From sequence record NC_031047.1: a stretch of DNA of 64,000 nt; one strand, given 5' to 3'. A program made the position numbers and the translations under genes. Below are positions 31,539 to 35,973 of the stretch, in pieces (within the stretch, counting starts at the first letter, position 1; each line of letters begins with the position of its first letter). The notes under the pieces are model-generated. The model was not told the DNA's origin and did no database searches. It saw only the letters and a list, made by a program, of their open reading frames with translations. This DNA is from Escherichia phage HY03.

Positions 31539-32000
31539 ATGACTATCAACACAGAAGTTTTTATTCGTCGAAATAAGCTCCGTCGTCACTTTGAGTCGGA
31601 GTTTCGTCAAATTAACAATGAGATTCGTGAGGCATCAAAAGCAGCAGGGGTCTCATCGTTTCATCTAAAATATTCTCAACATCTTCTTGATCGCGCAATT
31701 CAACGGGAGATTGATGAGACATACGTTTTTGAATTATTCCATAAAATAAAAGACCATGTTTTAGAAGTTAATGAATTCCTGAGTATGCCTCCGCGTCCTG
31801 ACATTGACGAGGATTTTATTGATGGGGTTGAATATCGTCCTGGACGTTTAGAAATCACAGATGGAAATCTTTGGCTTGGATTTACAGTTTGTAAACCTAA
31901 CGAGAAGTTCAAAAACCCGTCACTTCAATGTAGGATGGCAATTATCAACAGTCGTCGTTTACCAGGAAAGGCTTCTAAAGCAGTAATTAAAACTCAATGA
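31539..32000 (+). CDS. regB: RegB site-specific endoribonuclease
   Basis: 153-aa ORF matching T4 RegB in length and position. Confidence 0.85.
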   Translation: MTINTEVFIRRNKLRRHFESEFRQINNEIREASKAAGVSSFHLKYSQHLLDRAIQREIDETYVFELFHKIKDHVLEVNEFLSMPPRPDIDEDFIDGVEYRPGRLEITDGNLWLGFTVCKPNEKFKNPSLQCRMAIINSRRLPGKASKAVIKTQ

Positions 32001-32007
32001 GGTAAGC

Positions 32008-32553
32008 ATGAGAAAAGCACTACTCGCTGGTCTATTGGCCATTTCAATGATGGCACATAGCTCCGAGCATACTTTCAGTAATGTCCAACTCGATAACATG
32101 CGTTACGCGTATCAATTCGGGGAACAATTTTCTAAGGATGGAAAATATAAAACACACAAAAATATCCACAAGAGCGGATTAGGTCATATAATGGCTGCTA
32201 TTTTATGGCAAGAAAGCTCTGGCGGAGTTAATTTAAAATCTAAACCAAAGCATCACGCTTATGGAATGTTCCAAAATTATTTGCCTACTATGCGAGCGAG
32301 AGTTAAGGAACTTGGTTATAATATGACCGATGCTGAAATAAAAAGAATGTTGAATAAACGATCCAATTCAGCTTCCTGGGCGTACATTGAACTTTCTTAT
32401 TGGTTAAATATACACAAGGGAGATATAAGAAAAGCAATATCCTCTTATAATTCGGGATGGAATGTTAAAGCTGGTTCTAAATATGCTTCTGAAGTCCTAG
32501 AAAAGGCTAATTACCTTAAAAATAATAAACTTTTGGAAATAGTAAATGACTAA
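32008..32553 (+). CDS. secreted lytic transglycosylase-like protein (vs.1 position)
   Basis: Signal peptide MRKALLAGLLAISMMAHS; SLT-type catalytic motif ILWQESSG. Confidence 0.65.
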   Translation: MRKALLAGLLAISMMAHSSEHTFSNVQLDNMRYAYQFGEQFSKDGKYKTHKNIHKSGLGHIMAAILWQESSGGVNLKSKPKHHAYGMFQNYLPTMRARVKELGYNMTDAEIKRMLNKRSNSASWAYIELSYWLNIHKGDIRKAISSYNSGWNVKAGSKYASEVLEKANYLKNNKLLEIVND

Positions 32554-32893
32554 AATTTTGGTTTTATGTATAGGATTAATTTCATTTTCTGCTTCTGCGT
32601 CAGCAGATACATCATATACTGAAATTAGAGAATATGTAAACCGCACTGCGGCAGATTATTGTGGGAAAAATAAAGCATGCCAAGCTGAATTTGCGCAGAA
32701 ATTAATATATGCATATAAAGACGGAGAAAGAGATAAATCAAGCAGATACAAAAATGATACTTTATTAAAACGATATGCTAAAAAGTGGAATACCTTAGAA
32801 TGTTCAGTTGCGGAGGAGAAAGATAAAGCCGCTTGTCATTCAACGGTTGACCGTTTGGTAGATTCTTATAATCGAGGATTGAGTACTAAATGA
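32546..32893 (+). CDS. small Cys-rich protein with signal peptide (vs position)
   Basis: 115-aa ORF; N-terminal hydrophobic leader; position of T4 vs. Confidence 0.5.
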   Translation: MTKILVLCIGLISFSASASADTSYTEIREYVNRTAADYCGKNKACQAEFAQKLIYAYKDGERDKSSRYKNDTLLKRYAKKWNTLECSVAEEKDKAACHSTVDRLVDSYNRGLSTK

Positions 32894-33357
32894 TTGTAAA
32901 ATATATCAAGGGCGATATTGTCGCCCTTTTCACTGAAGGTAAAAATATTGCGCATGGATGCAATTGTTTTCATACGATGAAAGCTGGAGTCGCAGGTCAA
33001 TTAACCAAAGCTTTCCCTAAAATTTTGGAAGCTGATAAATTACAGACTGAATGGGGTGATGTAACTAAACTTGGTTCTTATTCAGTCTATGAAAAATACT
33101 TTAGGACTCATAAAGCTTACTGCTTTAATCTTTATACTCAATTTCAACCAGGGCCAAATTTTGAATATTCCGCTTTAATGAATTGTATGTTAGAATTAAA
33201 TGAGTTTGGTGAAAATAAACTGATTAAACCTACAATCTATATGCCTAGGATTGGTGCAGGCATAGGTAAAGGGAACTGGGATATTATTGAGGGGATTTTA
33301 GATACATATTCCTCTAAATTAGAAATTGTGATTGTTGATTGGGAACCATTATTATGA
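32890..33357 (+). CDS. macro-domain-like protein (putative ADP-ribose binding/hydrolase), tk.4 position
   Basis: Motifs AHGCNCFHTMKAGVAGQL and IGAGIGKG resemble macro-domain signatures; assignment tentative. Confidence 0.5.
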   Translation: MIVKYIKGDIVALFTEGKNIAHGCNCFHTMKAGVAGQLTKAFPKILEADKLQTEWGDVTKLGSYSVYEKYFRTHKAYCFNLYTQFQPGPNFEYSALMNCMLELNEFGENKLIKPTIYMPRIGAGIGKGNWDIIEGILDTYSSKLEIVIVDWEPLL

Positions 33358-33566
33358 ATATACATTATCCACATCCATATGACCCAAAGAATAAGGCAGT
33401 AATTATTCGTCAATGGGAACGCATTTGCCGTACTAAATGCCCAATTAATAGTCCGCATGATGTAGATAAAGACTATATTGGAACATTCGTTGAATATACC
33501 TTTATTGATAAGAAAGGTCGTAAACAACACGTAGAAGAATATTGCTTAAAGGTGCAATGGTTATGA
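33354..33566 (+). CDS. hypothetical protein
   Basis: 70 aa from ATG overlapping the upstream stop; Cys/His-rich. Confidence 0.5.
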   Translation: MNIHYPHPYDPKNKAVIIRQWERICRTKCPINSPHDVDKDYIGTFVEYTFIDKKGRKQHVEEYCLKVQWL

Positions 33567-33748
33567 GTCTGAGTAAAGGACAAAAAGATAAATTGTTTGA
33601 GCTTATCCATGAACTTCTAGATGAGCATACAGAAGCAAACACCTTTTATGATGAATACGGCCCGCTATCTCCCGAACAGCAAGAAGAATTTGCTGACCGG
33701 TTTGATAAGAAAGAAAACGAATTAATAGCTTATGTGAATACGCTTTAA
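33563..33748 (+). CDS. hypothetical protein
   Basis: 61 aa from ATG overlapping the upstream stop. Confidence 0.45.
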   Translation: MSLSKGQKDKLFELIHELLDEHTEANTFYDEYGPLSPEQQEEFADRFDKKENELIAYVNTL

Positions 33749-33757
33749 GAAGGTGAT

Positions 33758-34339
33758 ATGGCGAGTTTAATTTTTACTTATGCAGCAATGAATGCTGGAA
33801 AATCTGCTTCTCTTTTGACTGCTGCGCATAATTATAAAGAACGTGGAATGAGTGTATTAGTTCTTAAGCCTGCTATTGATACTCGTGATTCTGTCTGTGA
33901 AGTCGTTTCTCGCATTGGAATTAAACAGGAAGCTAATATTATTACGGATGATATGGATATTTTTGAGTTCTATAAATGGGCTGAAGCACAAAAAGATATT
34001 CATTGCGTATTTGTAGATGAAGCTCAGTTTTTAAAAACTGAACAAGTGCATCAATTGAGTCGAATTGTTGATACATATAATGTTCCTGTTATGGCTTATG
34101 GATTAAGGACTGATTTCGCTGGAAAATTATTTGAAGGTTCTAAAGAACTTTTGGCGATTGCAGATAAACTTATTGAACTAAAAGCAGTTTGTCATTGTGG
34201 TAAAAAAGCTATTATGACAGCTCGATTAATGGAAGATGGAACACCAGTTAAAGAAGGTAATCAAATCTGTATTGGTGATGAAATTTATGTTTCTTTGTGC
34301 AGAAAACATTGGAATGAATTAACTAAAAAGCTCGGTTAG
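33758..34339 (+). CDS. tk: thymidine kinase
   Basis: 193 aa; P-loop GKSASLL; Zn-ribbon CHCG...C; matches T4 Tk. Confidence 0.95.
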   Translation: MASLIFTYAAMNAGKSASLLTAAHNYKERGMSVLVLKPAIDTRDSVCEVVSRIGIKQEANIITDDMDIFEFYKWAEAQKDIHCVFVDEAQFLKTEQVHQLSRIVDTYNVPVMAYGLRTDFAGKLFEGSKELLAIADKLIELKAVCHCGKKAIMTARLMEDGTPVKEGNQICIGDEIYVSLCRKHWNELTKKLG

Positions 34340-34381
34340 TGCAAAAGTTATAAATAGGTTTATCTAACTAAAGGGGTATAT

Positions 34382-34594
34382 ATGTTACAATTAACTGAAA
34401 AGCAACTTCGCAATCTTACTGTTCTTCAATTAGATGAAATTCGTAGGGAAGTTGGAAATATCATTTCAGCTTTGCGTCGAGAAGTATCACTCAACCAATC
34501 TCCGGCAGACTATACTAGATTGCGAAATTTTGAAAAATACCTTGATAAAGTTAAGGCCGTGCATCGGCATAAAGTAAATACAGGGCAAAAATGA
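34382..34594 (+). CDS. hypothetical protein (rI.-1 position)
   Basis: 70-aa ORF between tk and rI. Confidence 0.55.
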
Positions 34595-35772: not shown

Positions 35773-35973
35773 ATGTTAACACGTGAACAGTTTGAAAAAA
35801 TCATTAAATTAGCACGTGATGTTGAAATAGATTCATACCAATTGGCAGTTGAGCATTGTGAAGGATATTCATACGACGGTATAGAAGCAGCTAAAAAGGA
35901 TTTGGATAAATCTAAAGCTAAGTTAGTTCAATATCTTGAAATGATTAGGTGGAATAATGAAAACTGTAGTTAA
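35773..35973 (+). CDS. hypothetical small protein
   Basis: 66-aa ORF. Confidence 0.55.
   Translation: MLTREQFEKIIKLARDVEIDSYQLAVEHCEGYSYDGIEAAKKDLDKSKAKLVQYLEMIRWNNENCS

What the first reader, a model, noticed from the sequence alone, without database searches (positions are those of the whole stretch)
32890..33357. Macro-domain-like protein between vs and tk
The motifs AHGCNCFHTMKAGVAGQL and IGAGIGKG resemble the two signature elements of macro domains (ADP-ribose binding or hydrolysis). In a phage lineage that uses ADP-ribosyltransferases, a macro domain could reverse ADP-ribosylation or degrade ADP-ribose-derived defense signals. I am not aware of functional annotation of the homologous tk.4-position gene.
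Basis: inference. Interest (0 to 1): 0.5.

Follow-up and report, generated by a model that had tools for sequence, protein, structure and literature searches.

The report
T4 tk.4 macrodomain, the anti-DarTG2 factor AdfM

Summary

Many phage records already annotate it as macro domain, phosphatase or Poa1p-like. A 2025 preprint (HIDEN-SEQ) found tk.4 to be the only T4 gene needed on a DarTG2 host. A clean knockout became DarTG2-sensitive, and the gene was named adfM.

Two smaller points came out here. First, the family has an invariant Gln where DarG and TARG1 have their catalytic Lys. This matches Streptomyces SCO6735, which cleaves thymidine-linked ADP-ribose on DNA and needs that Gln. So it works like DarG but is not a DarG member. 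Second, this window carries a minority allele, K31/A32 in the ADP-ribose loop where T4 has G31/S32, inside a 45-nt mosaic patch.

Verdict: already known, low interest. Enzymatic hydrolysis by Tk.4 is still inferred, not shown.

The parts
32890..33357 (+). tk.4 / adfM coding sequence: 155 aa, 17.6 kDa, a single macro domain
32950..33003 (+). Loop 1 and start of helix 1 (residues 21-38, AHGCNCFHTMKAGVAGQL). Contains H22 and N25, which align to SCO6735 His24 and Asn27, and the G-x-G-[VI]-A ADP-ribose loop. In this allele the loop reads K31-A32-G33.
   Evidence: H22, G23, C24, N25, C26, M30, G33 and A35 are 90-100% conserved in 102 relatives and in 141 further representatives.
32952..32994 (+). 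Mosaic patch: 11 of the 16 nucleotide differences from T4 tk.4, including G31K and S32A
   Evidence: 0 of 20,000 permutations reach this clustering. The K-type patch is in about 24 phage records (RB51, RB68, wV7, SG1 and others). The T4-type patch is in 167.
33127..33141 (+). N80-L-Y82-T83-Q84 motif. Q84 occupies the position of the catalytic Lys of TARG1 (K84) and DarG (K80) and of the essential Gln85 of SCO6735.
   Evidence: Q84 and Y82 are invariant in 102 + 141 sequences. The mutagenesis of SCO6735 is in PMC9411070.
33244..33279 (+). Loop 2, the phosphate-binding loop (residues 119-130, PRIGAGIGKGNW). G124 aligns to SCO6735 Gly128. G126 sits where TARG1 has Asp125.
   Evidence: P119, I121 and G124 are invariant.
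32546..32893 (+). Upstream gene vs (valyl-tRNA synthetase modifier). Its stop overlaps the tk.4 start (ATGA), which suggests translational coupling within one early transcript.
33354..33566 (+). Downstream gene tk.3. Its ATG overlaps the tk.4 stop (ATGA).

Best explanation
The ORF is the ortholog of phage T4 tk.4, recently named adfM (anti-DarT factor, macrodomain). It is a stand-alone macrodomain of the TARG1/ALC1-like class, made from the early regB-vs-tk gene block. Proposed mechanism: when a host DarT2 toxin ADP-ribosylates thymidines in single-stranded phage DNA and blocks replication, the protein binds the ADP-ribose in the cleft formed by loop 1 (H22..N25..M30-x-x-G33-V-A) and loop 2 (P119-R-I-G-A-G124). 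It then hydrolyses the thymidine-ribose bond and restores replicable DNA. The catalytic set-up is the SCO6735 type: a Gln (Q84), held by N25, positions the distal ribose for attack by an activated water. It is not the DarG/TARG1 type, which uses a catalytic Lys. Shown: gene identity, macro fold, conservation of the SCO6735-essential residues, and, from the literature for T4, a genetic requirement of tk.4 for growth on a DarTG2 host. Inferred: that protection is by hydrolysis, that the chemistry is SCO6735-like, and that this window's K31/A32 allele is as active as the T4 allele.
Against: No biochemical assay of Tk.4 was found in the searched literature, and the preprint itself says hydrolysis 'seems likely'. 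The genetic evidence comes from one preprint and from the T4 allele. This window's allele replaces the first glycine of the ADP-ribose loop with lysine, at a position that is Gly in 88 of 102 relatives. The two lysines that position DNA in SCO6735 (K34, K89) are not conserved at the aligned positions (A32, about G88). The long 'mobile loop' of the SCO6735 subclass is about five residues shorter here. Macrodomains of this class, including inactive mutants, can also inhibit DarT by direct interaction (PMC9411070), so protection need not be catalytic.
Confidence: 0.7

Rival explanations
1. The protein protects against DarTG2 without catalysis. It would bind and inhibit the DarT2 toxin, or shield ADP-ribosylated DNA, acting as a stoichiometric antitoxin mimic.
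For: It lacks the catalytic Lys of DarG and TARG1 and the Asp of TARG1. Catalytically dead SCO6735 Q85A, DarG K80A and TARG1 K84A still inhibit DarT in vitro (PMC9411070). Other anti-DarT factors (AdfA, AdfB) are thought to act by binding the toxin (PMC11825919).
Against: It has no counterpart of the DarG C-terminal DarT-binding domain (155 aa, one domain). The invariance of N25, Y82 and Q84 across 243 sequences is the pattern expected of an active site, and the same Gln is essential for hydrolysis in SCO6735. A binder tuned to one toxin would not be expected to be this conserved across about 2700 phage genomes with many different hosts.
Confidence: 0.12
2. Its main substrate is not DarT2-modified DNA. 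Candidates are a small molecule or other ADP-ribose conjugate: ADP-ribose-1''-phosphate or O-acetyl-ADP-ribose (the 'phosphatase/deacetylase' of the database names), ADP-ribosylated RNA or protein, or ADP-ribose metabolites linked to NAD salvage. The DarTG2 effect would then be one activity among several.
Against: The names are inherited from family labels, not from assays. The only phenotype reported for T4 tk.4 is DarTG2-specific. CmdTAC, which ADP-ribosylates mRNA, still defends strongly against T-even phages, which argues against efficient reversal of that modification (abstract of PMC11618068).
Confidence: 0.12
3. It reverses the phage's own Alt/ModA/ModB arginine ADP-ribosylation of host proteins, or it degrades Thoeris-type ADP-ribose-derived signals. 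These are the first reader's other suggestions.
Against: From established knowledge of these families, arginine-linked ADP-ribose is removed by ARH/DraG-type enzymes, not by TARG1-class macrodomains. None of the retrieved papers that mention tk.4 or AdfM links it to Thoeris. The closest structures are DNA and ester-linked ADP-ribose hydrolases, not signal-binding macro domains.
Confidence: 0.04

Closest known systems
Phage T4 Tk.4 = AdfM (anti-DarT factor macrodomain; bioRxiv 10.1101/2025.11.20.689424)
   Same: 152 of 155 residues are identical. It has the same length and the same position between vs and tk.3, with overlapping start and stop codons.
   Different: Three substitutions: T15A, K31G and A32S, written as window residue, position, T4 residue. 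Two lie in the ADP-ribose loop, inside a 45-nt mosaic patch. The window's phage also lacks tk.1.
Streptomyces coelicolor SCO6735 (PDB 5E3B) and Bacteroides BT1257 (2FG1/2AFC): Gln-type ALC1-like macrodomains
   Different: Only 21-29% identical. The 'mobile loop' after the Gln is about five residues shorter. DNA-positioning Lys34 and Lys89 are not conserved in place. The host genes are cellular, whereas this family is almost entirely phage-borne.
DarG macrodomain, antitoxin of DarTG2 (PDB 5M3I, 5M31, 7OMU)
   Different: Gln84 replaces the catalytic Lys80. There is no C-terminal DarT-binding domain and no adjacent darT. The NCBIfam DarG model scores 24 bits against a cut-off of 250.
PhiKZ gp104, also named AdfM (Cell Rep 2026, PMC13309987)
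   Same: A stand-alone phage macrodomain that counters DarTG2. In vitro removal of DarT2-made ADP-ribose from DNA was shown.
   Different: A different lineage: 19% identity and hhalign probability 96.5%. It carries the DarG-type FPTK lysine and is imported into the phage nucleus.
Human TARG1/OARD1 (PDB 4J5R) and yeast Poa1p (6LFQ)
   Same: Same fold class and top Foldseek hits (4.9e-10; TM 0.74-0.82). The two binding loops align.
   Different: The TARG1 Lys84/Asp125 dyad is Gln84/Gly126 here. About 20% identity. Their known substrates are protein Glu/Asp-ADPr (TARG1) and, going by its deposited name, ADP-ribose-1''-phosphate (Poa1p).

Membership tests
Macro domain (Pfam PF01661) | Profile match at or above Pfam's gathering score | tested here: met
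   25.0 bits against a cut-off of 22, E 1.9e-5, covering profile positions 2-113 of 118.
Macro domain (Pfam PF01661) | Three-layer alpha/beta/alpha fold with a six-stranded mixed sheet and five helices | tested here: met
Macro domain (Pfam PF01661) | Two glycine-rich ADP-ribose/phosphate-binding loops | tested here: met
   The M30-x-x-G33-[VI]-A35 and P119-x-I121-G122-x-G124 loops are conserved and align to those of TARG1, DarG and SCO6735. The first Gly of loop 1 is Lys in this allele.
Macro domain (Pfam PF01661) | Binds ADP-ribose | not testable with these tools
   Needs ITC or thermal shift with ADP-ribose, or a co-crystal.
TARG1/ALC1-like macrodomain class | Closer in structure and sequence to TARG1, DarG, Poa1p and BT1257 than to the MacroD, PARG or viral X-domain classes | tested here: met
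TARG1 (OARD1) orthologs | Catalytic Lys84/Asp125 dyad | tested here: not met
   The aligned residues are Q84 and G126.
DarG antitoxin (NCBIfam NF048014) | Full-length model score at or above the curated cut-off, which includes the C-terminal DarT-binding domain | tested here: not met
   24.3 bits against a cut-off of 250. Only the N-terminal macro part of the 338-position model is matched. PADLOC DarG gives 29 bits, also on the macro part only.
DarG antitoxin (NCBIfam NF048014) | Catalytic Lys80 in the F-P-T-K motif | tested here: not met
   NLYTQ aligns to NFPTK, giving Gln84.
DarG antitoxin (NCBIfam NF048014) | Encoded next to a darT toxin gene | tested here: not met
   The neighbours are vs and tk.3. 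Relatives in L013 and L014 lie among T4-like phage genes.
SCO6735/BT1257-type (Gln-type) ALC1-like macrodomains | Gln at the catalytic position, plus His24, Asn27 and Gly128 equivalents | tested here: met
   Q84, H22, N25 and G124 align. Q84, N25 and G124 are invariant in the family and H22 is 95% conserved.
SCO6735/BT1257-type (Gln-type) ALC1-like macrodomains | Extended 'mobile loop' after the Gln, described as characteristic of the subclass (PMC9411070) | tested here: not met
   hhalign places a 5-residue gap in Tk.4: FQP-----GPN against HGMKTGSKGAP.
SCO6735/BT1257-type (Gln-type) ALC1-like macrodomains | Hydrolysis of thymidine-linked ADP-ribose on DNA | not testable with these tools
   Needs an in vitro assay with a DarT2-modified oligonucleotide.
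T4 Tk.4/AdfM orthologs | Near-identity and conserved position between vs and tk.3 | tested here: met
   98% identity. The flanks are collinear at 96-97% nucleotide identity.
T4 Tk.4/AdfM orthologs | Required for plating on a DarTG2 host | not testable with these tools
   Published for T4 only. Not known for the K31/A32 allele.

The most novel reading that the evidence does not exclude
The T4-type AdfM may not be a captured DarG antitoxin. It may be a separate, phage-wide lineage of Gln-type macrodomain hydrolases that uses the water-activating SCO6735 mechanism. The short mosaic patch that swaps the ADP-ribose loop (G31-S32 to K31-A32) in RB51/RB68/wV7-like phages would then be an arms-race allele. 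It would retune substrate or toxin specificity, for example towards other DarT2 variants or another nucleic-acid ADP-ribosylation.
Probability: 0.25. Interest if true: 0.4.

Novelty: already known. Interest (0 to 1): 0.2.

Why it matters
DarTG systems stop phages by ADP-ribosylating their DNA. Knowing which phage genes undo this helps predict host range and helps choose therapeutic phages. For this gene, both the macro-domain assignment and the anti-DarTG2 role in T4 are already in databases and in the literature, so the finding adds little. Two questions remain open. One is biochemical proof of hydrolysis. The other is whether the Gln-type active site and the K31/A32 loop allele change specificity. 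Both could be settled with simple assays.

Tried and rejected
1. Membership in DarG: rejected (24 bits against a cut-off of 250, no C-terminal domain, Gln instead of Lys80, no darT neighbour).
2. A TARG1-type Lys/Asp mechanism: rejected (Q84 and G126).
3. The idea that the closest non-phage relatives are bacterial housekeeping genes: the two 'bacterial' MAG proteins examined (P0071, P0099) lie in T4-like phage contigs.
4. Promoter scan: 16 sites against 17.3 expected by chance, so no promoter is claimed.
It was rerun without that sequence.
7. A literature search for 'tk.4' with 'bacteriophage T4' returned only two genome-comparison papers, which were not read. The functional paper was found through 'tk.4' plus 'macro'.
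8. The IMG/VR locus scan returned only 11 loci, and its search patterns included the K allele, so it was not used for allele frequencies.

Full report
**Observation.** The window has an ATG-started ORF at exactly 32890..33357 on the + strand, 155 aa. The protein is 17.6 kDa with pI 6.3. Its translation contains AHGCNCFHTMKAGVAGQL (residues 21-38) and IGAGIGKG (residues 121-128). The start codon overlaps the stop of the upstream ORF as ATGA, and the stop overlaps the ATG of the next ORF in the same way. This is typical of a tightly packed, probably translationally coupled phage operon.

**What the region is.** Megablast of 32000-34400 finds 745 phage records, almost all T4-like (Tequatrovirus). 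The best match is phage AR1 at 97.9%. The annotated gene order is regB, vs.1, vs, tk.4, tk.3, tk.2, tk. In the T4 reference the corresponding gene is tk.4 (NP_049723), annotated 'phosphatase; contains A1pp phosphatase motif'. The window protein is 152/155 identical to it. Other records call it 'macro domain protein', 'Poa1p-like family protein', 'ADP-ribose binding module protein' or 'hypothetical protein'. So the macro-domain assignment is already in public annotation.

**Is it a macro domain?** Yes, by every test used here.
- Pfam PF01661 scores 25 bits against a gathering score of 22.
- PHROG 335 matches at 7.8e-65.
- The single sequence already hits solved macrodomains: BT1257 at 4e-8, Poa1p at 3e-5, TARG1 at 3e-3, DarG at 1e-2.
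- A profile of 101 relatives raises these to BT1257 8e-20, TARG1 2e-16, SCO6735 1e-15, Poa1p 2e-14, DarG 9e-14 to 3e-12. Coronavirus and alphavirus macrodomains sit near 1e-3.
- An AlphaFold2 model built from that alignment has mean pLDDT 96.5 and pTM 0.91, with six strands and five helices.
- Foldseek against the PDB returns macrodomains (TARG1 4.9e-10; Poa1p TM 0.82; DarG TM 0.76-0.80), apart from a few designed serine hydrolases.

The protein therefore belongs to the TARG1/ALC1-like class.

**What is known about the function.** A full-text search found a bioRxiv preprint of November 2025 (10.1101/2025.11.20.689424). A T4 transposon library was grown on E. coli expressing DarTG2. tk.4 was the single significant hit, and a clean tk.4 knockout became sensitive to DarTG2. 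The authors named the gene adfM, anti-DarT factor macrodomain. They state that enzymatic removal of ADP-ribose from DNA 'seems likely', by analogy with AdfN. [quoted passage not shown] A separate paper gave the same name, AdfM, to PhiKZ gp104. That paper showed in vitro that gp104 removes DarT2-made ADP-ribose from a TNTC oligonucleotide (PMC13309987).

**Mechanistic detail added here.**
- In an alignment of 102 relatives the invariant residues are G33, A35, Y82, Q84, P119, I121 and G124. H22, G23, C24, N25, C26, M30, N80 and T83 are 90% conserved or more.
- In 141 further representatives of 50%-identity clusters, N25, Y82, Q84, G122 and G124 are again invariant.
- HMMER, MAFFT and hhalign all place Q84 at the position of TARG1 Lys84 and DarG Lys80. 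TARG1 Asp125 corresponds to G126. The protein therefore lacks the catalytic residues defined for TARG1 and DarG.
- The same is true of Streptomyces SCO6735, which has Gln85 at that position and still cleaves thymidine-linked ADP-ribose on DNA efficiently. In SCO6735, Q85A and H24Y abolished activity (the H24Y loss was attributed to a disrupted structure), while N27S and G128E strongly reduced it. A water-activated mechanism was proposed (PMC9411070).
- I recovered the 5E3B sequence through a BT1257 query and aligned it to the family profile. The match has probability 98.7% and E 1.6e-16, with H22/His24, N25/Asn27, N80/Asn81, Q84/Gln85 and G124/Gly128 in register.
- PhiKZ gp104 carries the DarG-type FPTK lysine and is only 19% identical.

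So T4-type AdfM works like DarG in outcome but resembles SCO6735 and BT1257 in its active site. It fails the DarG membership tests: NCBIfam DarG 24 bits against a cut-off of 250, no C-terminal DarT-binding domain, no adjacent darT. It also differs from SCO6735. Its post-Gln loop is five residues shorter, and the DNA-positioning Lys34 and Lys89 are not conserved in place.

**The allele in this window.**
- Against T4 tk.4 there are 16 nucleotide differences. Eleven fall within 45 nt (gene nt 63-105; window 32952-32994), a clustering reached in 0 of 20,000 permutations.
- The patch includes several synonymous changes, so it looks like an imported tract rather than point mutations.
- It changes the loop from M-G-S-G (T4) to M-K-A-G.
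- Position 31 is Gly in 88 of 102 relatives. It is K, A, N, D, E, F or R in 14 scattered lineages, so non-Gly residues are tolerated.
- About 24 phage records carry the K-type patch, including RB51, RB68, wV7, SG1, G8 and ECML-134. The T4-type patch is in 167.
- In SCO6735 and DarG the neighbouring loop position is a Lys, and in SCO6735 that Lys contacts the distal ribose, the terminal phosphate and the DNA. A lysine in this loop is therefore plausible for a DNA-directed enzyme. Whether it changes activity is unknown.

**Distribution.** tblastn finds relatives in 2726 of 50,697 phage records, from Escherichia, Klebsiella, Salmonella, Pseudomonas, Vibrio and Acinetobacter phages among others. 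Two homologs labelled as bacterial MAG proteins lie in T4-like phage contigs, next to Rnl1, a Dda-like helicase, PNKP, dCMP deaminase and a T4 spanin. The close family is thus essentially phage-borne. BFVD shows many phage macrodomains of this type, some with extra domains.

**Rivals.**
- A non-catalytic, toxin-binding mode is possible, because dead mutants of this class still inhibit DarT. The strict conservation of the SCO6735-type active-site residues argues for catalysis.
- Other substrates (Appr-1''-p, OAADPr, ADPr-RNA or ADPr-protein, NAD-salvage intermediates) are suggested only by inherited names and by gene neighbours in distant phages.
- Reversal of Alt/ModA/ModB arginine modification, and degradation of Thoeris signals, have no support.

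**Verdict.** The thing is already known: it is annotated as a macro domain in many records and is functionally assigned in T4 as the anti-DarTG2 factor AdfM. The Gln-type active site, the distinction from DarG and from PhiKZ AdfM, and the loop-1 mosaic allele are modest refinements. Interest is low.

Noticed in passing
window 33563..33748 and 33749..33757: The window has only two small ORFs between tk.4 and tk. tk.1 is absent. The second ORF is a diverged tk.2, roughly half identical to T4 Tk.2. T4 Tk.1 and Tk.2 themselves look like weak paralogs.
   Followed up: partly
window about 35947..35966: blastn against T4 jumps over about 1.7 kb at this point. T4's mobD homing endonuclease, with mobD.1, mobD.2 and mobD.2a, is missing from this phage.
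   Followed up: partly
window 32908..32928: A perfect 9-bp GC-rich hairpin (AAGGGCGAT-ATT-GTCGCCCTT) lies inside codons 7-13 of tk.4. It is terminator-like on the minus strand. RNA folding z-scores are -2.8 (+) and -4.0 (-). It is identical in T4, and one RefSeq relative lists a 'terminator' among the features under the tk.4 match.
   Followed up: partly
phage records MK170160 (TAC1), OL960030 (vB_AbaM_P1), MW344056 (ABurr); hits H50, H51, H56: Distant relatives of Tk.4 sit next to nicotinamide phosphoribosyltransferase or ribose-phosphate pyrophosphokinase genes. This hints at a link to NAD/ADP-ribose salvage in those phages.
   Followed up: no
L013 1927..2397 and L014 6001..6480: Homologs filed under bacterial MAGs (Bacilli, Culicoidibacterales) are in contigs full of T4-like phage genes, so the 'bacterial' labels are probably binning artefacts or prophage-free phage contigs.
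   Followed up: yes
literature (bioRxiv 10.1101/2025.11.20.689424 and PMC13309987): The name AdfM has been given independently to two different macrodomain lineages: T4 Tk.4, with Gln at the catalytic position, and PhiKZ gp104, with a DarG-type Lys. They are 19% identical.
   Followed up: yes
window 32546..32893 (vs): The same preprint reports vs, the gene just upstream of tk.4, as the most strongly depleted T4 gene in minimal medium compared with LB.
   Followed up: no
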